A stretch of DNA of 11,813 nucleotides, taken from the IMG/VR virus record IMGVR_UViG_2869947659_000003, positions 1 to 11,813 of that record. One strand, 5' to 3'. How positions within the stretch are numbered: position 1 is the stretch's first letter; the number at the start of each line of letters is the position of its first letter. The notes under the pieces were generated by a model. The model worked only from the letters and a program-made list of their open reading frames with translations. It ran no database searches and was not told the DNA's origin. The stretch is from a virus. Taxonomy: Duplodnaviria; Heunggongvirae; Uroviricota; Caudoviricetes. This document shows, in pieces, positions 1 to 11,813 of the stretch. Both the position numbers and the translations under genes were made by a program.

Positions 1-819
1 TTAAGCAGCCATCTGATGATATTTTTCCCTGAAGGCTGCCGGGGAGATATTCCCCAGACGAGAGTGACGACGCTGACGATTGTAGAAAATCTCAATGTAT
101 TCCCGTATTACTGAGATGGCTTCATCCCGGTTATTAAAACGATAGTGGCTCAGGCTCTCATTTTTCAGCGTTCCCCAGAAGCTTTCCATCGGAGCGTTGT
201 CGTAACAGTGACCTTTACGCGACATTGATGTTTTCAGACCAGACTGCTCCTGTATGACCCGGTAATCGTATGCGCAGTACTGTGAACCTCGATCAGAGTG
301 GTGGATTAGCCCGGCAGGTGGGCGCTGGCTCCTGAGCGCCATAAACAGGGCTTTACCTGTCAGCTCTTTTGTCATGCGCTCTCCCATGGCGTAGCCGACA
401 ATTTCGCACGTATAAACATCTTTGATGCCAGCGAGGTACAACCATCCCTCCTGTGTGGCAACATACGTCAGGTCCGCCACCCAGACCTGATTTGGTGCTG
501 TAGGAGCGAACGTCTGGTTCAGCAGATTTGGCGCAACTGGCAGATTGTGGTTCGGGTTCGTAGTCGCTCTGAACTTGCGTTTCTGCTTACAGCGTAGCCT
601 TAGCTCCTTACGAAGACGTGCCAGTCGGTCACGACCAACGATGATGCCATTCTCTGCCAGCTCCGTCTGGAGCCGCCGGGTTCCATATGTTTCGCGAGTG
701 CGGATATGTGCCACCTTAATCTCCAGTTTTAGCCGCTCATCACTTTGTTTTCTGTCTGAGGGTTCATGCTGTACCCAGTTGTAATAACCGCTCCTGGATA
801 CACCAAATACCTGACACAT
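1..819 (-). CDS. IS3-family transposase OrfB (DDE/integrase catalytic core), probably made as an OrfAB fusion by -1 frameshift
   Basis: 272-aa ORF with rve-like motifs (HSDRGSQYCAYDY, KGHCYDNAPMESFWGTLK, FYNRQRRHSRLGNISP). Stop codon sits at window positions 1-3. The ATG at 819 is probably not the biological start. Confidence 0.9.
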   Translation of the reverse strand: MCQVFGVSRSGYYNWVQHEPSDRKQSDERLKLEIKVAHIRTRETYGTRRLQTELAENGIIVGRDRLARLRKELRLRCKQKRKFRATTNPNHNLPVAPNLLNQTFAPTAPNQVWVADLTYVATQEGWLYLAGIKDVYTCEIVGYAMGERMTKELTGKALFMALRSQRPPAGLIHHSDRGSQYCAYDYRVIQEQSGLKTSMSRKGHCYDNAPMESFWGTLKNESLSHYRFNNRDEAISVIREYIEIFYNRQRRHSRLGNISPAAFREKYHQMAA

Positions 820-854
820 CGCTTCAATGGGAAATTGTTGTCGCCATTGTTCGA

Positions 855-1157
855 TTAACGCGTATTTTTCAGCGACTCCTGTGCAAAATACGCTGTTGCT
901 TTTTTTAATATATCTCGCTCAAGGCGAGCTTCATTTAACGCCTTACGCAGTTGCAGAATTTCAGATTCCAGTTCAGCCACCGTGCGGGAACCAGGAGTAC
1001 CGAGCCCTTTTCTGGCGGCGGTAACCCATTGTCCTAAAGTGCCTTCAGGAAGGGATAATCGGGAAGCGCCTTCACTGATCGAAAGTTGATTTTCAAGAAC
1101 CGTTCTGACAGCTTCGGCTTTGAACTCTTTAGAGTAACGTTGGTTTTTTCTGCTCAT
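855..1157 (-). CDS. IS3-family transposase OrfA (helix-turn-helix DNA-binding subunit)
   Basis: 100-aa ORF directly upstream of OrfB; N-terminal HTH-like region and C-terminal leucine-zipper-like segment (LESEILQLRKALNEARLERDILKKATAYFA) typical of IS3 OrfA. Confidence 0.85.
   Translation of the reverse strand: MSRKNQRYSKEFKAEAVRTVLENQLSISEGASRLSLPEGTLGQWVTAARKGLGTPGSRTVAELESEILQLRKALNEARLERDILKKATAYFAQESLKNTR
897..908 (-). other. Putative programmed -1 ribosomal frameshift site (A-rich slippery run) near the 3' end of orfA
   Basis: Minus-strand mRNA reads GAT ATA TTA AAA AAA GCA at the codons for ILKKA; the IS3 family typically uses an A AAA AAG-type heptamer here. Not experimentally supported. 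Confidence 0.5.
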
Positions 1158-2861: not shown

Positions 2862-3197
2862 TTATCGGGCCAGCGGCTGAACGGATACGCCGGAACCCGC
2901 AAAGGCGGCGCATTTTTTCGCATCGGTGTCGACGCTCTCAGGCCAGTTAACGGCGGCAATATTGAATATCCCCGTCTTGTAACACTGTGCTGATTTCTGC
3001 TTTGACGTGTCCACAGGGTACGAGGTCAGATAAACAGCCTTGCCAGATTCCTTACCATCCCACGGCTTAAACTCGCCATTGTCCGCCAGCATCAGCGGGG
3101 TAAATTCCTGAATAACGCCAGCATCAGCGGCAAAATGTACCAGCGTCGTGGCGACCTGCTGACTGCCTGCAAATAACTCAATGTATGGAGTGTCCAT
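2862..3197 (-). CDS. Lambda gpD-like head decoration protein homologue
   Basis: TPLMLADNGEFKPWDG...YKTGIFNIAAVNWPESVDTDAKKCAAFAGSGVSV aligns with lambda gpD TPLMLDTSSRKLVAWDG...[35 protein letters not shown] (from memory). GGGGGA Shine-Dalgarno. Confidence 0.75.
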   Translation of the reverse strand: MDTPYIELFAGSQQVATTLVHFAADAGVIQEFTPLMLADNGEFKPWDGKESGKAVYLTSYPVDTSKQKSAQCYKTGIFNIAAVNWPESVDTDAKKCAAFAGSGVSVQPLAR

Positions 3198-3208: not shown

Positions 3209-4264
3209 TTAACCAATTTTGACGGTAACAAATTTGCGAATATCTGCCGGAACCGGCTGCGGTGCGCTGTGCGTCTGCACGTACTCAATCGCCGGATCGC
3301 CGTCCTCAATCCAGTTTTTCGGGTAAAACATGTTTTGCGTTGCGCCTGTTCTTACTGCGTCCTGATCCATAATCGCACCATAGGCCACCAGCCCTTTATT
3401 GTTGGTGTTGCCCAGAACCAGCAAATCAGGCTCAAGGAAATATTTTTCTGTGCCGTCGCTGTCAGTGTATTTGCCGGAATAGACGATAAGGGCAATATCG
3501 CCCAGATAGCCTTTAAAGCTCACCACTTCGCCCAGGTTTTTACAGGCCAGCTCTGCGGCGGACTCTGAACCACGGGAAAGATCGTACAGCTCACGGAATT
3601 TTTTAAAGCTGCGTAACGTTCGCCATACCTCAGCGCCCATAATCATGACGTTTGCGGGGCAACCAGCCTGATCGGCGTATAGTTCGATATCATAGATTGG
3701 ATCGTGGGTTTCTTTGTCCTGCTCTGACCATTTTTTCCCGTCGGCCTGCTCTATGATGTTTTTTTCCGGTATCTTCCAGTCGATTTCATAGCGCTCTATG
3801 CCTTCGCCCTCAATGATGTTTTTTCCGGTCGTTACCGCATTTACCGCCAGCCATTCCACGCGCGCTTTAATGGCGTTTATCTGGCGGCGCATGTTGCCAG
3901 TAATCAGGCGCATACGGCGATAGGTAGGGTCGTTAAGCTGTGCCGGATCTTCTCCAGCCATGCGCATGATGGTTTTCGTTGGATCGATTTCGTGCTTTGG
4001 CTTCATGTAGCCAGGTTTAATCGTGCTGGTTTCGTACCCTTTATCGCGCTGAACCTGGCTACCCACCATAGGCGAACAAAACGCCGACATGGTGACTTCT
4101 TCAATGTCCAGGGTATCCAGCATGATGTTTTGCGTGCTGAATGTCGCCACGTTCGGGAAAAACAGCGTGGTAAACAGCGGACTGAATTTAAATTCCGCAA
4201 TATCCCCGCGATTCAGGTACGCAAAAAGCTGGTTAGTGTTAAGTACCATTGCTTTTACTGTCAT
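3209..4264 (-). CDS. Lambda gpE-like major capsid protein homologue
   Basis: Conserved blocks along the whole 351 aa shared with lambda gpE: EFKFSPLF, KPGYMKPKHE, DPTYRRMRLI, WSEQDKETHDP, WRTLRSFK, RGSESAAE, SFKGYLGDIALIVYSGKY, LVLGNT, FYPKNWIEDGDPA, QSAP. Start codon overlaps the stop of the upstream 68-aa ORF (TAATG). Confidence 0.9.
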   Translation of the reverse strand: MTVKAMVLNTNQLFAYLNRGDIAEFKFSPLFTTLFFPNVATFSTQNIMLDTLDIEEVTMSAFCSPMVGSQVQRDKGYETSTIKPGYMKPKHEIDPTKTIMRMAGEDPAQLNDPTYRRMRLITGNMRRQINAIKARVEWLAVNAVTTGKNIIEGEGIERYEIDWKIPEKNIIEQADGKKWSEQDKETHDPIYDIELYADQAGCPANVMIMGAEVWRTLRSFKKFRELYDLSRGSESAAELACKNLGEVVSFKGYLGDIALIVYSGKYTDSDGTEKYFLEPDLLVLGNTNNKGLVAYGAIMDQDAVRTGATQNMFYPKNWIEDGDPAIEYVQTHSAPQPVPADIRKFVTVKIG

Positions 4265-4470
4265 TATTCCCCCCCGTGAACCTGATTCATACCCAGCGCC
4301 GCGCGTAAATAGGCGCGTACCTGCCAGCCTGTTGACGGCTCAACCATCGCCAGCGGATCAAGTCCTGCCGCAATGCCTGCTTTTACGTTCTGCTGGTGGC
4401 GTTCCTTGAGCGCCTTCACGATGTCGGGGCTTATGTACACCGAAACACCGCCTTTTTTCTCTTCAGCCAT
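4264..4470 (-). CDS. Hypothetical protein, 68 aa (first gene of the capsid-like operon)
   Basis: AGAGGA Shine-Dalgarno upstream; translationally coupled to the gpE-like gene. No recognisable family. Confidence 0.5.
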   Translation of the reverse strand: MAEEKKGGVSVYISPDIVKALKERHQQNVKAGIAAGLDPLAMVEPSTGWQVRAYLRAALGMNQVHGGE

Positions 4471-4498
4471 AGTAAGAAATTCCTCTTTGACTTAAAAA

Positions 4499-4555
4499 AT
4501 CATAACTGGATGTTCATCCAGTTATGATTATAATCATGATCGCATTTTGTGCAAT
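4499..4555 (-). promoter_or_regulatory. Sigma70-like promoter for the capsid-like operon overlapped by a 30-bp perfect palindrome (candidate operator)
   Basis: Minus strand -35 TTGCAC (4549..4554), 16-bp spacer, -10 TATAAT (4527..4532). Palindrome ATCATAACTGGATG tt CATCCAGTTATGAT at 4499..4528 covers the predicted transcription start. Confidence 0.5.
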
Positions 4556-4633
4556 GATATTGAGTTGCGTTGCAAATTATGAAATGATTATCCCGATCAT
4601 GTGTGTCAGTGCACCAAAAAACCTCATATGCAA

Positions 4634-4672
4634 AAGCCCGATAACCCACCTCTGACCTTATCGGGCTTTTTT
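4634..4672 (+). terminator. Hairpin terminator (10-bp stem AGCCCGATAA / TTATCGGGCT, 13-nt loop, T-run)
   Basis: Seen directly; followed by TTTTTTAT on the plus strand. A weaker U-run follows on the minus strand, so it may act in both directions. Confidence 0.5.
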
Positions 4673-4770
4673 ATCTGCCTGCAAAGATGTTGAACAAAAA
4701 TTAACCACAACCATCATCTTTTTTGCATCAAAACAATTAAAAACAATAAATTACGCTCATGATGATGATG

Positions 4771-4847
4771 ACGATAAAATCACAAAAATGCGCTTTTTTC
4801 CGCGCCTCCCGCCCCGTGTTCAGGCCCACCCCGCCAGGAGGACCCGT
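4771..4847 (-). other. Degenerate third cos-like element (diverged duplicate of cos copy 2)
   Basis: Plus-strand 4771..4869 aligns with 2341..2430 over about 100 bp (…CCGCCCCGT…GGACCCGTAAAAAAGCCGGATTGCTCCGGC). The cohesive-end core is not intact (GGGCGGGAGG instead of GGGCGGCGACCT). Confidence 0.55.
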
Positions 4848-4869
4848 AAAAAAGCCGGATTGCTCCGGC
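4848..4869 (-). terminator. Rho-independent terminator downstream of ssb
   Basis: Stem GCCGGA / TCCGGC with loop, followed on the minus strand by six U residues; near-identical to the terminator at 2406..2430. Confidence 0.7.
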
Positions 4870-4885
4870 TTCTGTCACTCGTCGC

Positions 4886-5308
4886 TTAAAACGGTATGTT
4901 ATCCCCGTACGGATCATCATTCCCCGCCTGTTGTTTTGCCCTGTTCAGCGCGTCAGTAGCCTGGCCCTGTTGACCTTTTTTGCCGCCCAGTCGCGCCGTT
5001 CGCGCACTGATTACACTGTCTGCGATAACCTGCCAGCCCTGCCGCGTTTCCCCGTTCTGTCCGGTCCACTGGCTGACCTGCATCGTGCCGGATACGCTGG
5101 CAACGTCGCCTTTTTGATGTTTAGCCAGGAAGTCGGCCTGCTTACCAAATGCGATGACCGATAGCCATAACGTCGCCTGCCCATCCTGCGCCTGACTACA
5201 TGGCAACGATACCGCCATACGCGCCAGCGTCATCGGTGTGCCCTTGCTGGTCTGTTTTACCTGCGGGTCGTCCACCAGCCGCCCGTAAGCGGCTATCTGT
5301 GCTGTCAT
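4886..5308 (-). CDS. ssb: Single-stranded DNA-binding protein (SSB-like OB-fold protein with acidic C-terminal tail)
   Basis: OB-fold-like core (TLWLSVIAFGKQADFLAKHQKGDVASVSGTMQVSQWTGQNGETRQGWQVIADSV) resembling the E. coli SSB core, and a C-terminal tail ending DDPYGDNIPF (compare the SSB DDDIPF tip). Start overlaps the stop of the upstream ORF (ATGA). Confidence 0.7.
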   Translation of the reverse strand: MTAQIAAYGRLVDDPQVKQTSKGTPMTLARMAVSLPCSQAQDGQATLWLSVIAFGKQADFLAKHQKGDVASVSGTMQVSQWTGQNGETRQGWQVIADSVISARTARLGGKKGQQGQATDALNRAKQQAGNDDPYGDNIPF

Positions 5309-5850: not shown

Positions 5851-7599
5851 TTATAAAAACGCGTCGCAATCGTCTGTTGTTATTGCGTTAGTCTGCGTTA
5901 CTCCCTTAACTTTCCGCGTAATATATTCATGTCCGTAAACTTTCGCGGCTGGCTTCATAGCCTTGCCAAAGTCATTTACGTTTAGCGGTTTGCTCCTGCC
6001 TGCGTATGCCATAAACGCCAGATAGACGCGGTAAAGGCTGTTTCTGGTCGTGTACTTCACTGAATCGCCACCGCCACCCATCATCAGGCCGCGCGCTTCC
6101 TCCAGAAAATTCAGGAACTGGCAAAACTCAATAACCGGATCCGTCTGTTGCTTTATTGCCAGAGCTTCATCACCGTCACGCTGTTCCAGTAGTAAAGCCC
6201 GTGCCTTCTCAGGGTCGGTAAAGTTCGCCAGCAAGCGGCGGATAATGACAGGGATTTCAGCCGCGATCTTTTCCGGTAGCTCCCTGTCTTTTTCTGCCTC
6301 GCTTACGATATTGTCGAAGCGGAAAATAACCCGACGACGTGACACGCCTCCGGCCCGTTCGGTGAATATCATCGGGTTGTTATTGGTCGCCAGCACCACC
6401 GCCCTGATTACCGTAGTGAAACGCTTTTCATATTTCGGGTTGATTTCCACGGGGTCGCCGCCCGTGATTTTCTTGATGCCCGTGCCTTCGCCTGTATATT
6501 TCGGCTGGTCTGCCAGGACGATAAGACGACTCCCGACAACCTGCGCACGCCCACCAGCATCATCAAGCGATGTCATTTCCGCGCTTACCGTGTTTTGTTT
6601 CCCCGCTAAAAGGCTGGCGATGTGGGTGAATGTACTTTTGCCGCTCCCGCCGTCTCCGGTGGCCTCAATAAACATCTGCCAGTCGTACCGGTTCGCCATA
6701 ATCATGTACAGCGCGGCACATATACGCATCATCTTGCGCTGGTCTTTTCCAGCTGCGTGATCAAGCCATTTATGAAAGTTTGGCGCGTTATCGCGGATGT
6801 TCTCCCCAGGTGCTGGTGGCGTGTACTCAATGCCGTTGTGCGTGGTGATCCAGTTCTCCGGCGTGTGCGGGGAAAATTCCCCCGTTTTCAGGTCAAGCGC
6901 ACCATTGGCGAACGGCAGCAAATCGCCGGACGGCTCCCCCATTGGTTCGGCAATAACTTTTAACGCTTCAACGGCGTTATTGATCACGCGTTTGCTGAAA
7001 GTGGCCCTGTGCTCTGAATAGATCGCCACCATTTCGCGGCTCAGCTCCATTGTGCTGATCGGACACCATACCCCGCCGCGCCATACGTGAACGATTTCAC
7101 TTTCCGGATGCACACAAACGCCATCAAAGCGCTCGGCAAGCAGCTGCGCGCGCTCACTGTCTGCCATTTGTGCCAGTTGCGTATTTTTCTGCTCCGGCAT
7201 GGTAAGCCCTGCGGCAATATTTTCACGCTCAGCATTCAGATAGCGCCGCCAGTTTTCACACTTCTGGACGTGCATTCCTTCGGGGTAAAAATTTGCGTCC
7301 TGAATATCTGCCGCCGCCAGCTTCTGACCAATCTTTTTGGTCTCCACTAAATCCAGTTCTCCGGCCTGGTACAGCCTTACGCGCTTTTTCCCATCCGGAA
7401 CAATTTTCAGCGCATCAAGTTCGGCAAGCTGATTTGGCCCAAGCCACACAGGCGGCACATTATCGCCGGATGCGGGGCCATCCTGCTCCTGCCATTGTTT
7501 CGCGTGCGACCAGGCATCACTACCCGCGAAAATAATTACCTCTGTGTCTTTGTGTTTTATTCCGCGTGGCTGTTTTTTTACGTTCGGTGCCAGTTTCAT
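5851..7599 (-). CDS. P4-family primase/helicase (alpha-like replication protein; D5-type SF3 helicase with Walker A)
   Basis: 582-aa ORF with Walker A EATGDGGSGKST and a downstream Walker B-like LIVLAD segment; overall resemblance to the P4 alpha / phage-plasmid primase C-terminal region. Coupled by ATGA overlap to the upstream small ORF. Confidence 0.88.
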   Translation of the reverse strand: MKLAPNVKKQPRGIKHKDTEVIIFAGSDAWSHAKQWQEQDGPASGDNVPPVWLGPNQLAELDALKIVPDGKKRVRLYQAGELDLVETKKIGQKLAAADIQDANFYPEGMHVQKCENWRRYLNAERENIAAGLTMPEQKNTQLAQMADSERAQLLAERFDGVCVHPESEIVHVWRGGVWCPISTMELSREMVAIYSEHRATFSKRVINNAVEALKVIAEPMGEPSGDLLPFANGALDLKTGEFSPHTPENWITTHNGIEYTPPAPGENIRDNAPNFHKWLDHAAGKDQRKMMRICAALYMIMANRYDWQMFIEATGDGGSGKSTFTHIASLLAGKQNTVSAEMTSLDDAGGRAQVVGSRLIVLADQPKYTGEGTGIKKITGGDPVEINPKYEKRFTTVIRAVVLATNNNPMIFTERAGGVSRRRVIFRFDNIVSEAEKDRELPEKIAAEIPVIIRRLLANFTDPEKARALLLEQRDGDEALAIKQQTDPVIEFCQFLNFLEEARGLMMGGGGDSVKYTTRNSLYRVYLAFMAYAGRSKPLNVNDFGKAMKPAAKVYGHEYITRKVKGVTQTNAITTDDCDAFL

Positions 7600-8405: not shown

Positions 8406-8571
8406 CGCTCAGGAATACGCAGACCTCACCGCTAAGGCGTTTAAGTAAGCCGATGATTGCCCCTGATTCGCTGTCGGTCATCATGCCAGGGTAATCCTCT
8501 GCCAGTGCGCAAATAACTTCGATTTGGTGGGCGCGTTCTGCTGCCTGTTGTAGTGTGATTTCCTGACTCAT
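8341..8571 (-). CDS. Hypothetical protein, 76 aa
   Basis: ORF whose ATG overlaps the stop of the upstream 66-aa ORF (ATGA at 8568..8571). Confidence 0.5.
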   Translation of the reverse strand: MSQEITLQQAAERAHQIEVICALAEDYPGMMTDSESGAIIGLLKRLSGEVCVFLSDEQERRTLISNEKKCGGVHVQ

Positions 8572-8768
8572 AAGCCTACCCCCTGACGAATACGGGCGGC
8601 GAATACCATCACGCAGCCATCAGGAGATTGCTGGCGTGCTTCCTGTTCGCTGGTGGCCACGATGTGAATCACGCGCGGTTGTGCGGTGCTCAGGGCGATA
8701 AAACGCCAGATGTATTTATTCAGGTTGTACGAGTCCCGCCCTTGCGGGTGTATGGTATAATTTCTCAT
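8568..8768 (-). CDS. Hypothetical small protein, 66 aa (possibly Icd-like); first gene of the replication operon
   Basis: Sub-ORF MRNYTIHPQGRDSYNLNKYIWRFIALSTAQPRVIHIVATSEQEARQQSPDGCVMVFAARIRQGVGL, taken from the C-terminal end of the 469-aa track ORF, with a GAGG RBS. Its WRF...PRV..I.A.SE.EAR...FAAR pattern resembles what I recall of Icd-like proteins in P4-like prophages; tentative. Confidence 0.45.
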   Translation of the reverse strand: MRNYTIHPQGRDSYNLNKYIWRFIALSTAQPRVIHIVATSEQEARQQSPDGCVMVFAARIRQGVGL

Positions 8769-8859
8769 AGCTGCCTCGATAATCTTGCTATCGTTGGTGG
8801 TTAGAAGCCCCGTTACTGCTCCTACAGTGCGGGGTTTCGTCGTTTCTGCACCTTGCATT

Positions 8860-8945
8860 AACAAGGTGTAAGTAACTTTATTTATAGGTGGCTTACATGT
8901 CAATGCTTTTATGTAAGACTTTTTATGTGTATATTGTCTTACACT
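8860..8945. promoter_or_regulatory. Divergent promoter/operator region with four TGTAAG / CTTACA half-sites
   Basis: TGTAAG at 8867 and 8912, CTTACA at 8892 and 8938; CTTACAT-N12-ATGTAAG forms an inverted repeat. Sits between the plus-strand RHH-like gene and the minus-strand replication operon. Confidence 0.45.
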
Positions 8946-8964
8946 TTCATTGAGAGGATTACAG

Positions 8965-9270
8965 ATGGCTACAGGTTCAAAAAACGCAAAATCACAATCA
9001 CTGACAGCTCGGATCCCGCATGATGTTATTGAAGGCATGGAATCCGTAAAACTGGACGGTGAAAGCAACGCCGGATTCATAGTAACCGCCATGCGCGGTG
9101 AAATCGCCCGCCGCCAGGCAGAAGGAAGCAGAGAAAACCCCCTGATTTCTTCGCTCGATGCACTGGCGCAGGTGGAAAAACTCGGAATCAAAGCCGCCGA
9201 GGAGATCGGGCAGCTCGTCACTGTCGCACGTGAAGAACTCCAGCGCCGCAAGACCAAAGAACCAGAGTAA
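8965..9270 (+). CDS. Probable ribbon-helix-helix (CopG/Arc-like) DNA-binding protein, about 101 aa
   Basis: Strong RBS AGAGGA 6 nt before the ATG at 8965 (the track ORF begins at TTG 8950). N-terminus LTARIPHDVIEGMESVKLDGESNAGFIVTAMRGEIARR fits a beta-strand/helix/helix RHH pattern. Fold assignment is by pattern, not by search. Confidence 0.55.
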   Translation: MATGSKNAKSQSLTARIPHDVIEGMESVKLDGESNAGFIVTAMRGEIARRQAEGSRENPLISSLDALAQVEKLGIKAAEEIGQLVTVAREELQRRKTKEPE

Positions 9271-9327
9271 TCACCATCAGCGCCGTGGTGTAAGGTATTA
9301 CGGCGCATTGCTATGCAGGACAACACA

Positions 9328-9501
9328 ATGACCGATAAAGAATTGACCAAAACATTATCACCGGCACGGAAAAGACGGCGCAGAAAGATAGAGCATGAAT
9401 CAGAAAGATTCGCGCCATGTGCTTTTGCCCTTGAGCAATTCCTTAAAGAGTACAGGGAAAAGCGCTCATTGCAGGTATGGCAACGAACTGAACCAGACTG
9501 A
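9328..9501 (+). CDS. Small basic protein, about 57 aa (the track ORF begins at the upstream ATG 9313)
   Basis: AGGA 7 nt upstream of ATG 9328; N-terminal KRRRRK cluster; followed by a plus-strand terminator. Confidence 0.45.
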   Translation: MTDKELTKTLSPARKRRRRKIEHESERFAPCAFALEQFLKEYREKRSLQVWQRTEPD

Positions 9502-9577
9502 TTGCATTGCCCACCAGCCGCAAATGTGGCATTGTTGGCAATGCTCATGCGTTGGGGATAACGTGTAGCTTGTGTCG

Positions 9578-9609
9578 AGGGGCCACCGTAGCGGGTGGCC
9601 TTTGTTTTG
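9578..9609 (+). terminator. Rho-independent terminator ending the plus-strand cassette
   Basis: Stem GGCCACC / GGTGGCC with loop GTAGCG, followed by TTTGTTTTG. Confidence 0.6.
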
Positions 9610-9612
9610 CCC

Positions 9613-9977
9613 GTTATTCGGCAATTGTGGCGCTTCTCCACATGGTTGATATAATCCCACTGCTCAGATTCATTTTTTGCGCAGTAGGTTAATTGTTCAC
9701 AAAGGCGCTCCGGCAACGGGGCGCTTTTTGTTTTTATTAGTTTGTAGAAACCTGACTCAGAGATAATGCTCATATTCTGATTGCCGTCAGGGGTGTAAGT
9801 TAAATTTACTCCCTTTTTATCATCAAACATCTGCAACACTCTGGCGTTAACAATATTGGTTTCACTCCCGCCAGTAAGGCCGGAAATAACCGGAATACTT
9901 TCGGCAAAATTTTGCAGATTCTGTTTTTCAGGACGAACGAAGCCCCGCCCTTGTTCGGGAGAATATCCAGTATTCAT
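9613..9977 (-). pseudogene. Possible 5' remnant of a gene downstream of alpA (N-terminal ~120 codons of the 469-aa track ORF); extent uncertain
   Basis: The N-terminal part (MNTGYSPEQGRGFVRPEKQ...EQWDYINHVEKRHNC) has protein-like composition. The rest of the 469-aa frame runs antisense through the plus-strand genes and is Ser/Cys/Arg-rich, so it is probably not a real protein. No in-frame stop exists until 8568. Confidence 0.3.
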
Positions 9978-10029: not shown

Positions 10030-10218
10030 TTAGTGAACTGCCTCGCAGCTGTCCTTCCATGCCAGAACTTCGGATAAAGACCAGCCAACGGAACGACCGC
10101 CCAGCTTACGCCGTGATGGGAATTGTCCGGCTTTTTCCAGGCGGTACCGACATGAGCGGCTCAGGCCTGTAAGTTGCTGACATTCTTTTTCACGTATAAA
10201 GCGATCTGTGCTTAACAC
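10030..10218 (-). CDS. alpA: AlpA/Vis-like winged-helix regulator (prophage excisionase / transcriptional activator family)
   Basis: 62-aa protein resembling CP4-57 AlpA and P4 Vis-type proteins in size, composition and position next to a P4-type integrase. Start is GTG at 10218 with AAGGGGGA upstream. Confidence 0.8.
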   Translation of the reverse strand: MLSTDRFIREKECQQLTGLSRSCRYRLEKAGQFPSRRKLGGRSVGWSLSEVLAWKDSCEAVH

Positions 10219-10300: not shown

Positions 10301-10498
10301 GAATGGCAAACACTGGCGGCGGTCGTTTTACAGAAGCATGGGGAATGAGAATAAAAACTCTTTTAATTCATTATGATGCAAAGGCATAAAATTTTACTTT
10401 TACGCCTTTTTTACATATTTTTAAGAGTGATTCGCCAGTGTATAAAAAAACAGTACACCTATAAAAATCAAATGGTTATTACGATGGCTGATTTTTAA

Positions 10499-10560
10499 CC
10501 CGTTGTTCCATTTTGTTCCTTGTTGTTCGTCGTTGTGTCTCGTTGTTTCACGTTGTCCGC
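10499..10560. repeat. Six tandem roughly 10-bp direct repeats (consensus tCGTTGTTyC) just 3' of the integrase gene
   Basis: CCGTTGTTCC, ATTTTGTTCC, TTGTTGTTCG, TCGTTGTGTC, TCGTTGTTTC, ACGTTGTCCG in helical phase. Candidate binding array for Int arm-binding domain, AlpA/Vis or IHF-type proteins. Confidence 0.4.
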
Positions 10561-10583: not shown

Positions 10584-11813
10584 TTATATTTCTCTGGCTA
10601 TTGGCAATGTGGTTACGTTTTCATGTGTTCCCGCCAGTATCCCTAACCGCTCCGTCCACATATCCAGCGCGTCACGTTTCGCATCCAGATAACGGGAATG
10701 GTTATAGACTCGTTGCATCCCTGGCATCTGATGACCTGTAAGCTGCTCCACGACGTGAGGATCCACGCCTAAATCGTTCAGCATCGTTGTAAAGGTGCGC
10801 CGGATGTCATGCAGTGACCAGTGAGGGTGTTTTAGCCTCCTGTGCGCTAATCTACCGTACTGCGACACGCTTGTTTCCTGTTTCACTTCCCCCAGCAATA
10901 AGCCCGTGTGCCTGTTCTGCTCCACCAGCTGCGTGACGAACGGTAGTATTGCTTCCGGTATGGGCCGGAATATTGCCACCTTCGTTTTGCTGTGTTCTTT
11001 CGGCACGGTCCAGAGCATTTCGGTAAAATCCCACTCGCTGATCTCCGATAACCTCAGTTCTACCGTCCGGCATCCGAAAACAATCAGGAGGCGGATTAGT
11101 GCGACGTAGTAAGGGGAAAATATTTTTTTGTCCAGTGCCTGCAATAATTCGCCAAGTTCTTTGGTGCTTAAGACACGCTCGCTTATATCCGGTTTTTTCC
11201 TAACGTCCGCCACACTCATATCATCAAGAACGTTGCTGATTGCATAGCGCCGCCTCCGGCAGAACTTAAGCGCCTGTTTGCACGTCTGTAGCAAGAATCC
11301 GGCAGTAACAGGCGTTCGCTTTGCCACCTGGTCAAAACAGGCCAGCCAGTGCCGTAGCTCGCATTTATCCAGCGGCATAGCACCAATGTGCTGTATTACG
11401 TGATTATTAAGGCGCTTTTTCAGGGCGGCATAATCCACGCGGTTTTCCTTTGCGTACGACTCAAGCCAGTAGGTGAGCGCATCGCCAACCGTTACCGGCT
11501 TTAACGCTTCCTGTACGGTGTAATTAAGCTCATGACGTGGATTTTTCCCCTCTGCCAGCCATGCGCGACACTGGGCGGCTTTTTCCCTGGCTGATTTCAG
11601 GCTCAGATCAGGATAATTTCCCAGCTTAATGCGTTCCGGTGGTGCCCCCCTTCCCGTTCCGGCCCTGTAAGTGAAATACCAGGTTAAAAGGCCACTGGTT
11701 GAATGCCTGACGCTCAGGTTTCCACCGTCATTAAGAAAGGCTGTTTTTTGGGCGGGTGTGCCGTTGATTTTCCTCAGCTGTGTATCGCTCAGTTTGTTAA
11801 GTGCTCTGCTCAT
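10584..11813 (-). CDS. int: P4-type tyrosine integrase (site-specific recombinase)
   Basis: 409-aa ORF with N-terminal arm-binding-like region and C-terminal catalytic motifs (HDIRRT, GHQ, RVYNHSRYL with the catalytic Tyr). The ATG is at the window edge; alignment with the P4 Int N-terminus suggests this is close to the true start. Confidence 0.93.
   Translation of the reverse strand: MSRALNKLSDTQLRKINGTPAQKTAFLNDGGNLSVRHSTSGLLTWYFTYRAGTGRGAPPERIKLGNYPDLSLKSAREKAAQCRAWLAEGKNPRHELNYTVQEALKPVTVGDALTYWLESYAKENRVDYAALKKRLNNHVIQHIGAMPLDKCELRHWLACFDQVAKRTPVTAGFLLQTCKQALKFCRRRRYAISNVLDDMSVADVRKKPDISERVLSTKELGELLQALDKKIFSPYYVALIRLLIVFGCRTVELRLSEISEWDFTEMLWTVPKEHSKTKVAIFRPIPEAILPFVTQLVEQNRHTGLLLGEVKQETSVSQYGRLAHRRLKHPHWSLHDIRRTFTTMLNDLGVDPHVVEQLTGHQMPGMQRVYNHSRYLDAKRDALDMWTERLGILAGTHENVTTLPIAREI

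What the first reader, a model, noticed from the sequence alone, without database searches (positions are those of the whole stretch)
4529..4672. Promoter-terminator pair with no ORF: candidate small RNA between ssb and the capsid operon
On the plus strand a TATAAT hexamer at 4529..4534 is followed about 100 nt later by a strong hairpin terminator at 4634..4672, with no plausible coding frame between. This layout matches a small non-coding RNA of roughly 130 nt. It would be antisense to the 5' region and promoter of the capsid-operon transcript. P4-family satellites are known to use a small RNA (CI RNA) for immunity, so an RNA regulator here is plausible. The plus-strand -35 is poor, so this is tentative.
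Basis: inference. Interest (0 to 1): 0.4.

Follow-up and report, generated by a model that had tools for sequence, protein, structure and literature searches.

The report
Capsid-operon control region, possible short RNA
The flagged stretch is the control region of a phage satellite's capsid operon: the TATAAT most likely serves an SOS (LexA)-repressed promoter on the opposite strand. A short non-coding RNA ending at the hairpin remains possible, but from a different promoter and not as an antisense regulator.

Summary
The window is a Gram-negative phage-inducible chromosomal island (PICI) of the EcCICFT073 type, not a P4-family satellite. Both reported features exist.

- **TATAAT (4529-4534).** It lies inside a 10-bp palindrome, GATTATAATC, so the minus strand carries TATAAT too. 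In 53 related sequences the minus-strand promoter TTGCnn-16-TATAAT is always kept. The plus-strand hexamer is broken in two lineages (TTTAAT, TATAAA).
- **Palindrome 4498-4529.** It contains the best LexA box in the window (4504-4523, 20.1 bits), over the predicted start of the capsid operon.
- **Hairpin (4632-4672).** It is a real terminator at a module boundary. Four different hairpin sequences occupy this spot in relatives, each with the longer T-run on the plus side.
- **A better plus-strand promoter.** TTGAGT-17-TGaAATGAT (4560-4588) is conserved in all lineages. It predicts an RNA of about 78 nt (about 4595-4672).
- **The predicted RNA.** Its body is unstructured and nearly unconserved (32% identity). 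It matches no Rfam family, has no target in the island, and does not overlap the capsid mRNA.

A short divergent transcript is plausible. A 130-nt antisense, CI-like regulator is not supported. No transcript data were available.

The parts
4264..4470 (-). First gene (68 aa) of the capsid operon; the major capsid gene (3209-4264) and the decoration gene (2862-3197) follow
   Evidence: ORF list. Pfam Phage_cap_E and HDPD hits for the two downstream genes. phrog_3255, unknown function. RefSeq annotation of relatives.
4498..4529 (.). Perfect 15+15 palindrome, AATCATAACTGGATG/CATCCAGTTATGATT
   Evidence: I3. In 42 main-clade sequences the core is invariant and positions 4503-4505/4522-4524 vary, with a few compensated changes.
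4504..4523 (.). LexA (SOS) box AACTGGATGTTCATCCAGTT, of the form CTG-N10-CAG
   Evidence: Top hit in the whole window with a matrix built from 18 E. coli LexA boxes: 20.1 bits. Known boxes score 6.5-27.3 leave-one-out; 200 shuffled windows reach at most 16.3 (boxes from PMC3009722). Also present in the Salmonella (18.1) and Pluralibacter (17.7) relatives; absent in one E. coli clade.
4527..4532 (-). -10 hexamer TATAAT of the capsid-operon promoter Pcap (predicted start about 4520)
   Evidence: TATAAT in 42 and TAAAAT in 8 of 50 unique relatives. The scan tool called the homologous promoter in L005 and in Salmonella L260.
4549..4554 (-). -35 hexamer TTGCAC of Pcap, 16-nt spacer
   Evidence: TTGC is invariant in 50 of 50 and the spacer is always 16 nt.
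4529..4534 (+).
   Evidence: It is TTTAAT in 8 of 50 relatives and TATAAA in Salmonella. There is no -35.
4540..4558 (.). Operator-like unit O1 (TCGCA-N5-TGCAA plus TGAT), overlapping the Pcap -35
   Evidence: 17-nt direct repeat with O2, 30 bp apart (D1). Dyad pattern match. Conserved across lineages.
4570..4588 (.). Operator-like unit O2 (TTGCA-N5-TGAAA plus TGAT), overlapping the P2 -10
   Evidence: In Salmonella it is the perfect dyad TTTCATAATATGAAA.
4560..4565 (+). -35 hexamer TTGAGT of the candidate plus-strand promoter P2
   Evidence: TTGAGT in 40, TTGACT in 8, TTGATT in 1 and TCGATC in 1 of 50. TTGACA in Pluralibacter and TTGATC in Salmonella.
4580..4588 (+). Extended -10 of P2, TGaAATGAT, 17-nt spacer
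   Evidence: TGAAATnAT in 50 of 50, with only the -9 base free. The scan tool called this promoter in L005, L258 and L260. In the window it scores 8 of 12 plus the TG.
4595..4672 (+). Predicted short non-coding transcript (about 78 nt) from P2 to the hairpin; the start is inferred, not measured
   Evidence: Inferred from P2 and T2. The body 4595-4633 is unstructured (z = +0.64). Mean identity among five lineages is 0.32. No Rfam family. No target in the island above shuffles.
4632..4672 (.). Intrinsic terminator T2, usable both ways, with the better T-tract on the plus strand; left boundary of the capsid module
   Evidence: Homology with the O157-type elements ends at 4672. Four different hairpin sequences occupy the same position.
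4524..4655 (+). 43-codon hydrophobic ORF, judged non-coding
   Evidence: variable start codon, frameshifts, early stops.
4683..4852 (-). cos-like segment (context, not part of the candidate RNA)
   Evidence: 87-91% identity to non-coding DNA of Stx-converting and VT1-Sakai lambdoid phages. Alignment with mEp460. EcCICFT073 is reported to carry lambda/phi80-like cos sites (PMC6739421).
4848..4870 (-). Terminator T1 of the ssb (early/replication) operon
   Evidence: Hairpin plus six U on the minus strand, z = -5.19. The homologous site was called by the scan in L010.

Best explanation
Positions 4498-4672 are the control region of the PICI's capsid/packaging operon.

1. **Capsid promoter.** The TATAAT belongs mainly to a sigma-70 promoter on the minus strand: TTGCAC (4554..4549), 16 nt, TATAAT (4532..4527), with a start near 4520. 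This promoter drives the 68-aa gene, the capsid gene and the decoration gene.
2. **SOS control.** The palindrome just downstream is a LexA operator (4504-4523) covering the -10/+1 region. The operon would be silent until DNA damage removes LexA, which is also when a lambdoid helper prophage is induced.
3. **Second promoter.** Back to back with the capsid promoter lies a second, conserved promoter on the plus strand: TTGAGT (4560-4565), 17 nt, TGaAATGAT (4580-4588).
4. **Short transcript.** Its transcript would start near 4595 and stop at the hairpin, giving about 78 nt without a coding frame.
5. **Operator-like repeats.** Two 17-19 bp units 30 bp apart (4540-4558 and 4570-4588) overlap the -35 of the first promoter and the -10 of the second. 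They probably bind an unidentified regulator.
6. **Hairpin.** It marks the edge of the capsid module. It keeps plus-strand transcription out of the cos site and the replication genes, and backs up terminator T1 for minus-strand transcription.

**Shown:** the sequence features, their conservation and the LexA matrix score. **Inferred:** both start sites, LexA binding, and that the short RNA is made. The short RNA is more likely a by-product or a local insulating transcript than a conserved trans-acting regulator.
For: - **Element identity:**
- **Minus-strand promoter:** kept in 50 of 50 unique relatives plus Salmonella and Pluralibacter. The scan tool called it independently in L005 and L260.
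- **Symmetry broken one way:** twice independently the palindrome changed so that only the minus-strand hexamer survives.
- **LexA box:** best hit in the window at 20.1 bits, within the range of known boxes and above all 200 shuffles. CTGGAT..ATCCAG is invariant while its flanks vary, and two relatives changed to the consensus CTGTAT. A box is retained in Salmonella and, shifted by 12 nt, in Pluralibacter.
- **P2:** TTGAnn-17-TGAAATnAT in 49 of 50 relatives and in both other genera. The tool called it in three lineages.
- **Conservation profile:** it drops from 0.76 over P2 to 0.32 immediately downstream.
- **T2:** four different hairpin sequences, each with the longer T-run on the plus strand. 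Most relatives have the minus-facing T1 directly beside it, the layout of convergent transcription units.
- **Precedent:** SaPI operon I is LexA-controlled (Ubeda 2007, cited in PMC6092414).
Against: - No transcript data were available, so all start sites are predictions.
- In the window P2 matches only 8 of 12 consensus positions plus the TG, and the scan did not call it there.
- The conserved bases of P2 overlap operator-like unit O2, so protein binding could explain part of their conservation.
- One E. coli clade lacks the LexA box altogether.
- The published work read here reports that EcCICFT073 alpA induction depends on the helper phage and not on SOS, and mentions no LexA control of the capsid genes (PMC6092414).
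- The relatives are not phylogenetically independent, so counts such as 50 of 50 overstate the number of independent observations.
Confidence: 0.5

Rival explanations
1. No plus-strand RNA of any consequence is made. The hairpin is a two-way insulator and a back-up terminator for the early (ssb) operon. The conserved block 4538-4588 consists only of protein-binding sites (O1/O2) that regulate the capsid promoter.
For: - O1 and O2 form a 17-nt direct repeat 30 bp apart, each with dyad character. The Salmonella O2 is a perfect dyad.
- On the minus strand the main-type hairpin is followed by UUUUGCAU and folds with z = -5.70.
- The RNA body is unconserved and unstructured.
Against: - Conserved bases outside the O2 dyad fit a promoter: TTGA at exactly 17 nt, and A4587/T4588. 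The matching positions of O1 are not conserved.
- In one clade the minus-side tail of the hairpin is only UUUCAU while the plus side has 6-8 U.
- T1 already terminates the early operon in every relative.
Confidence: 0.28
2. One reading: the palindromic -10 works as a bidirectional promoter. The plus-strand TATAAT (4529-4534) fires from about 4541 and gives an RNA of about 130 nt ending at the hairpin. LexA would probably repress it too, because the LexA box covers its -35 position.
For: - Perfect TATAAT on both strands, with predicted starts 21 bp apart. This is within the 7-25 bp range used to define bidirectional promoters (PMC10268837).
- The plus-facing terminator lies downstream.
- The 138-nt RNA folds with z = -2.55, mostly because of the terminator.
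Against: - There is no -35 and no extended -10.
- The plus-strand hexamer loses -11A in the L005 clade and -7T in Salmonella. The terminator and the minus-strand hexamer persist in both.
- Such an RNA would not be antisense to the capsid mRNA, because the two transcripts diverge.
Confidence: 0.12
3. The palindrome 4498-4529 acts as an RNA hairpin followed by a U-run, that is, a leader terminator or attenuator in the capsid mRNA, and not as a LexA operator (or in addition to being one).
For: - On the minus strand it folds as a 14-bp hairpin followed by UUUUUU, z = -4.41.
- Several substitutions keep pairing on the minus-strand RNA through G-U pairs, and a few are compensated: 598 against 585 of 630 cells paired.
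- In Pluralibacter the box is directly followed by TTTT.
Against: - With the conserved -10 at 4532..4527, transcription would start inside the 5' arm, so the full hairpin could not form.
- Conservation is concentrated on CTGGAT..ATCCAG, the LexA core. It is not spread evenly along the stem, and 19 of 42 sequences have a mismatch at 4503/4524.
- The U-run is kept in the clade that has no palindrome.
Confidence: 0.07
4. The 43-codon ORF at 4524-4655 encodes a small hydrophobic protein, for example an SOS-controlled type I toxin similar to TisB or DinQ.
For: - The translation MIIIMIAFCAMILSCVANYEMIIPIM... is strongly hydrophobic, and the first 24 or so residues look conserved.
- A LexA box lies next to it.
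Against: - There is no ribosome-binding site.
- The start codon is CTG in 22 of 50 relatives, and both alternative ATG codons are also variable.
- A-run length changes shift the frame among close relatives, and seven sequences have early stops.
- The apparent conservation coincides with the promoter blocks.
Confidence: 0.03

Closest known systems
LexA control of the packaging operon (operon I) of Staphylococcus aureus pathogenicity islands (Ubeda et al. 2007, cited in PMC6092414)
   Same: A satellite's capsid/packaging operon has its own promoter, guarded by a LexA operator. Expression would therefore be tied to the SOS signal that also induces the helper prophage.
   Different: The host is Gram-negative and the box is of the E. 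coli type (CTG-N10-CAG). LexA binding is not shown. It was not mentioned in any of the E. coli PICI papers read here. One clade of relatives lacks the box.
Bidirectional promoters that arise from symmetry of the -10 element (Warman et al. 2021; PMC10268837)
   Same: GATTATAATC gives TATAAT on both strands, with predicted divergent starts 21 bp apart.
   Different: The commonest natural spacing is 18 bp. Here only the minus-strand half is kept in all relatives. No start sites have been measured.
Short Hfq-binding prophage RNAs AsxR, AgvB and EcOnc03 of enterohaemorrhagic E. coli (Tree et al. 2014; Rfam RF02703)
   Same: - Small size.
- A variable 5' part followed by a GCCCGA...UCGGGC terminator and a U-tail.
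- The Rfam model aligns from 4594, close to the predicted P2 start.
   Different: - The score is 18.4 bits against a gathering score of 63.
- The promoter regions are not homologous.
- The loop similarity is not conserved among relatives.
- The location is a PICI, not the late region of a lambdoid prophage.
P4 CI immunity RNA
   Same: Both would be a small RNA encoded by a phage satellite.
   Different: This element is not P4-like: it has no sid, psu, delta or alpha genes, and it has lambda-type capsid genes and a lambda-type cos site. No Rfam hit was found. CI is processed from an operon leader and acts through complementary seq sites (as summarised in PMC10111431); no such complementarity was found here.
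Lambda oop RNA
   Same: A terminated transcript of about 77 nt from its own promoter inside a phage control region.
   Different: oop is antisense to cII, whereas this RNA would overlap no gene. The comparison rests on my own knowledge and was not tested.

Membership tests
Independent small-RNA gene (own promoter plus intrinsic terminator) | Intrinsic terminator with a U-tail on the RNA's strand | tested here: met
   A 9-13 bp stem followed by six U on the plus strand, z = -4.26. A plus-side T-run of 5-8 is present in all relatives.
Independent small-RNA gene (own promoter plus intrinsic terminator) | A promoter on the same strand at a suitable distance | tested here: inconclusive
The alternative P2 (4560-4588) is conserved and was called by the tool in three lineages, but it scores only 8 of 12 plus TG in the window and overlaps an operator-like repeat.
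Independent small-RNA gene (own promoter plus intrinsic terminator) | Conserved seed sequence or conserved structure in the RNA body | tested here: not met
   Body identity among five lineages is 0.32. At least five unrelated body variants exist. The body fold has z = +0.64.
Independent small-RNA gene (own promoter plus intrinsic terminator) | A detectable discrete transcript | not testable with these tools
   The one catalogue checked, Hfq-CRAC of strain Sakai, could not be used. The Sakai island at the same chromosomal site (roxA-phoQ) has a different capsid module without these features. The rest of the Sakai genome was not searched for this module.
Any curated RNA family (Rfam 15), including P4 CI/C4-type and AsxR | Covariance-model score at or above the gathering threshold | tested here: not met
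   No hits at gathering thresholds in the window. The best sub-threshold hits are AgrB at 18.7 against 40 and AsxR at 18.4 against 63. Nothing relevant was found in four relatives.
P4-like satellite | P4 core genes (sid, psu, delta, alpha-type primase) and P2-type helper signals | tested here: not met
   The genes present are int, AlpA, DUF4222, a D5-type primase, SSB, a lambda E-like capsid protein, a lambda D-like decoration protein and a TerS-like HTH protein. The cos-like DNA matches lambdoid phages.
Gram-negative PICI of the EcCICFT073 type | int, alpA, primase/replication module, then capsid and packaging genes in one direction, with a lambda-like cos site | tested here: met
   This matches the description of the family in PMC6092414 and PMC10111431.
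E. coli LexA (SOS) box | 20-bp palindrome CTG-N10-CAG that scores like known boxes | tested here: met
   20.1 bits, the top hit of the window. Known boxes score 6.5-27.3; the maximum over 200 shuffles is 16.3.
E. coli LexA (SOS) box | Position overlapping the promoter or start site of the regulated operon | tested here: met
   The box at 4504-4523 lies directly downstream of the conserved -10 (4532..4527) and covers the predicted start near 4520. The start site itself is predicted.
E. coli LexA (SOS) box | Retention in relatives | tested here: met
   The core is invariant in 42 of 42 main-clade sequences. It is present in Salmonella and Pluralibacter and absent in the eight-sequence L005 clade.
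E. coli LexA (SOS) box | LexA binding and SOS-dependent expression | not testable with these tools
   This needs a gel-shift or footprint assay and reporter assays.
Bidirectional promoter by -10 symmetry | Overlapping -10 elements on both strands with divergent starts 7-25 bp apart | tested here: inconclusive
   The sequence allows it, with predicted starts 21 bp apart. The plus-strand half is not conserved, and no start sites are known.
Type I toxin or small membrane protein | A conserved, translatable ORF | tested here: not met
   Variable start codon, frameshifts and nonsense codons.

The most novel reading that the evidence does not exclude
The P2-terminator unit could be a genuine PICI gene for a 65-90 nt RNA. 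In this reading the promoter and terminator are conserved, and the body changes from lineage to lineage because it tracks a fast-evolving partner such as a helper-phage transcript or a host small RNA (sponge-like). It might also form, with operators O1/O2 and the LexA-guarded capsid promoter, a two-promoter switch that times capsid and packaging gene expression.
Probability: 0.12. Interest if true: 0.65.

Novelty: new member of a known kind. Interest (0 to 1): 0.38.

Why it matters
The papers on E. coli PICIs read here do not say how these islands time their capsid and packaging genes. They report that AlpA activates the early genes and that the helper's signal is unidentified.

A LexA box over the capsid-operon promoter gives a simple, testable answer: SOS control, as in staphylococcal islands. 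It also points to convergent regulatory logic in unrelated satellites.

The back-to-back second promoter, the paired operator-like repeats and the plus-facing terminator mark out a compact switch region. It could be dissected with a few reporter constructs.

For the sRNA claim itself, the result mainly corrects the promoter, the length and the mechanism. It also lowers the expectation of a CI-like regulator.

Tried and rejected
- **Rfam.** Nothing at gathering thresholds or at permissive E-values, in the window or in four relatives.
- **AsxR/AgvB/EcOnc03 kinship.** I fetched the three Sakai loci. Their promoters are unrelated, and the only shared part is a generic GCCCGA terminator.
- **Small-protein reading of the 43-codon ORF.** Rejected.
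- **Target search.** I looked for pairing between the RNA body and all mRNA-sense sequence of the window. The best non-self duplex is -28.0 kcal/mol against a shuffled mean of -27.7.
- **The scan tool's minus-strand promoter** TTCATA-18-TATCAT (4583..4554). Its -10 is poorly conserved, reading TATCAT in 23 of 50, with several variants lacking -11A.
- **The 68-aa first gene as a ribbon-helix-helix repressor that binds O1/O2.** Not supported:
  - The AlphaFold model has pLDDT 73.5, with a beta-hairpin and two helices.
  - Foldseek found no PDB match better than E = 2.8.
  - There is no Pfam hit and no PDB sequence hit.
  - None of 50,697 phage records has a homolog.
- **Genome-contig scans.** Both (68-aa profile and capsid protein) returned no confirmed loci. 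Relatives were obtained instead from E. coli genomes, a DNA-motif scan of viral and metagenome contigs, and protein-based contig look-ups. Because the motif scan used the conserved block itself, those loci are biased towards keeping it. The E. coli BLAST hits and the protein-based Salmonella and Pluralibacter loci are not.
- **Published Hfq-crosslinking catalogue for O157 Sakai.** Not informative. The Sakai island at roxA-phoQ (Sp7) carries a different capsid module.
- **Literature on LexA or small RNAs in Gram-negative PICIs.** Nothing found.

Full report
**What the window is.** All long ORFs lie on the minus strand:
- integrase, 10584-11813
- AlpA, 10030-10218
- a DUF4222 protein
- a D5-type primase, 5851-7599
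- SSB, 4886-5308
- a 68-aa gene, 4264-4470
- a lambda E-like major capsid protein, 3209-4264
- a lambda D-like decoration protein, 2862-3197
- a TerS-like HTH protein
- an IS3-type insertion at the left end

Near-identical elements sit in hundreds of E. coli chromosomes, including Nissle 1917 and ATCC 25922, and are annotated in the same way. This is the gene order described for Gram-negative phage-inducible chromosomal islands such as EcCICFT073 (PMC6092414, PMC6739421, PMC10111431). It is not a P4-type satellite.

**The observation.** TATAAT is at 4529-4534 on the plus strand. The hairpin has its stem at 4636-4644/4658-4666, extended by A/T pairs, with six T at 4667-4672.
- The hairpin folds far better than shuffles on either strand: z = -4.26 on plus and -5.70 on minus.
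- The hexamer alone is not beyond chance, and the scan did not call a plus-strand promoter there.
- A 43-codon hydrophobic ORF (4524-4655) does span the interval. Across 50 unique homologous sequences its first codon is CTG in 22. The frame is shifted by length changes in an A-run, and seven sequences carry early stops. It is not a gene.

**Comparative material.** I assembled 50 unique versions of the 250 nt upstream of the 68-aa gene. They came from E. coli genomes and from viral and metagenome contigs found with a conserved 17-mer. I added a Salmonella and a Pluralibacter relative, found through the 68-aa protein. The motif-based loci are biased towards keeping that motif. The BLAST-based and protein-based loci are not.

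**The TATAAT belongs to the other strand.**
- The hexamer lies in the palindrome GATTATAATC, so the minus strand reads TATAAT at 4532..4527.
- Sixteen bases upstream on that strand is TTGCAC (4554..4549). TTGC, the 16-nt spacer and the hexamer (TATAAT or TAAAAT) are kept in all 50 sequences.
- In the L005 clade the palindrome became GATTTTAAT. The minus strand then reads TAAAAT, while the plus strand reads TTTAAT and lacks the essential A at position 2.
- In Salmonella it became GATTATAAAC. The minus strand still reads TATAAT, while the plus strand reads TATAAA and lacks the final T.
- The scan tool called this minus-strand promoter on its own in L005 and in Salmonella.
- The capsid operon therefore most likely starts near 4520. 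A plus-strand RNA starting near 4541 would diverge from it and would not be antisense to it.

**The palindrome is a LexA box.**
- I built a position matrix from 18 E. coli LexA boxes listed in PMC3009722. The best 20-mer in the whole window is 4504-4523, AACTGGATGTTCATCCAGTT, at 20.1 bits.
- Known boxes score 6.5-27.3 when left out in turn. The best hit in 200 shuffled windows was 16.3.
- In 42 main-clade sequences CTGGAT..ATCCAG never varies, while the flanking stem positions do. Two sequences changed to CTGTAT, the consensus.
- Salmonella keeps a box (18.1 bits). Pluralibacter keeps one shifted by 12 nt (17.7 bits). One E. coli clade has none.
- The box covers the predicted start site, the usual place for SOS operators.
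- LexA control of a satellite's packaging operon is known for staphylococcal islands (Ubeda 2007, cited in PMC6092414). I found no mention of it for E. coli islands.
- An RNA-attenuator reading of the same palindrome is less likely, because transcription would begin inside its 5' arm.

**The hairpin and plus-strand transcription.**
- Homology with O157-type elements stops exactly at 4672, so the hairpin is the edge of the capsid module.
- Four different hairpin sequences occupy this position:

| Lineage | Stem | T-run, plus side | T-run, minus side |
|---|---|---|---|
| Main clade | GCCCGATAA | 6-8 T | UUUUGCAU |
| Pluralibacter | GCCCGCT/AGCGGGC (compensated variant of the main type) | 8 T | shorter than on the plus side |
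| L005 clade | ATCCCCCGG | 6-8 T | UUUCAU |
| Salmonella | CCCCCAGCC/GGTTGGGGG | 5 T | shorter than on the plus side |

- In most relatives a minus-facing terminator (T1) lies immediately to the right. This is the arrangement of two convergent transcription units.
- In the window, a 170-bp cos-like segment with about 90% identity to Stx-phage DNA is inserted between the two terminators. T1 then lies at 4848-4870.
- This pattern argues that plus-strand transcription reaches the hairpin and is stopped there.

**A better plus-strand promoter.**
- The block 4560-4588 reads TTGAGT, 17 nt, TGaAATGAT.
- Among the 50 sequences, 49 have TTGAnn. All have the 17-nt spacer and TGAAATnAT, with only the -9 base free.
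- Pluralibacter has TTGACA-17-TGaAATTAT and Salmonella has TTGATC-17-TGaAATAAT.
- The scan tool called this promoter in L005, Pluralibacter and Salmonella. In the window it reaches 8 of 12 plus the TG and was not called.
- It would start transcription near 4595 and give about 78 nt to the end of the hairpin.
- Mean identity among five lineages is 0.76 across this promoter. It falls to 0.32 in the next 45 nt and recovers to 0.50 over the hairpin.
- Caveat: the same block is the second copy of a 17-nt direct repeat (4542-4558 and 4572-4588, 30 bp apart) with dyad character, TTGCA-N5-TG(C/A)AA. Part of its conservation may therefore reflect an unknown DNA-binding protein.
- The bases that fit only the promoter model (TTGA at 4560-4563, and A4587/T4588) are conserved, whereas the matching positions of the first repeat copy are not.

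**What the RNA would be.**
- The body 4595-4633 is unstructured (z = +0.64).
- It exists in at least five unrelated versions and encodes nothing conserved.
- It matches no Rfam family.
- It has no pairing partner in the island beyond what shuffled sequences give.
- A weak AsxR-like alignment (18.4 bits against a threshold of 63) did not survive inspection. The AsxR, AgvB and EcOnc03 promoters are unrelated, and the loop similarity is not conserved.
- A conserved promoter and terminator around a free-running body suggests two possibilities. The transcript may be a by-product that is deliberately stopped before the cos site and the replication genes. Or it may be a lineage-specific RNA. I cannot distinguish these without expression data.

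**Verdict.**
- The two features are real, but the proposed promoter-terminator pairing is probably wrong. The TATAAT serves the LexA-guarded capsid promoter on the minus strand. If an RNA ends at the hairpin, it more likely starts at about 4595.
- The antisense mechanism and the P4 CI analogy are not supported.
- Confidence in the capsid promoter and the LexA box is fairly high. For the existence of the 78-nt RNA it is about even. For a conserved regulatory role of that RNA it is low.
- All start sites and LexA binding are inferred. The experiments under next steps would settle them quickly.

Noticed in passing
window 4683-4852: A cos-like segment, about 87-91% identical to non-coding DNA of Stx-converting and VT1-Sakai lambdoid phages. 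It lies between terminators T2 and T1, whereas many relatives have T2 and T1 directly adjacent. The cos segment therefore appears to have been inserted between a convergent terminator pair.
   Followed up: partly
window 10436-10455: The second-best LexA-matrix hit in the window, CAGTGTATAAAAAAACAGTA (17.8 bits). Its left half reads GTG where the consensus has CTG. It lies between the integrase stop and alpA. Published work reports that alpA induction is independent of SOS.
   Followed up: no
window 10502-10556: Repeats phased at 10 bp (GGAACAAC-like on the minus strand, about 4-6 copies) lie between int and alpA. They may be binding sites for AlpA, an excisionase or the integrase arm-binding domain.
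   Followed up: no
window 4540-4558 and 4570-4588: A pair of operator-like units 30 bp apart, TTGCA-N5-TG(C/A)AA plus TGAT, conserved from E. coli to Salmonella and Pluralibacter. The protein that binds them is unknown.
   Followed up: partly
window 4264-4470 (-): The 68-aa first gene of the capsid operon has no known function (phrog_3255). None of 50,697 phage records has a homolog. Its predicted fold (a beta-hairpin plus two helices) matches no solved structure. It appears to be specific to these islands.
   Followed up: partly
window 8568-9977 (-): A 469-aa ORF downstream of alpA, upstream of the DUF4222 and primase genes, has no Pfam or PADLOC match. It may be an accessory or defence gene.
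   Followed up: no
window 1-1157: An IS3-family insertion (HTH_Tnp_1 ORF at 855-1157; rve integrase-core ORF at 1-819, running off the window) lies at the distal end of the packaging module.
   Followed up: no
L254 (E. coli O157:H7 Sakai, prophage Sp7, 1,594,711-1,610,171): The island at the same chromosomal site (roxA-phoQ) in Sakai is of the capsid-forming type, with portal, protease and terminase genes. It shares terminator T1 but lacks T2, P2 and the LexA-guarded promoter. These control elements therefore travel with the lambda-E-type capsid module.
   Followed up: partly
window 4527-4548 and 4748-4769: A 22-nt inverted repeat, 77% complementary, links the promoter region and the cos-like segment. 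It may be chance.
   Followed up: no
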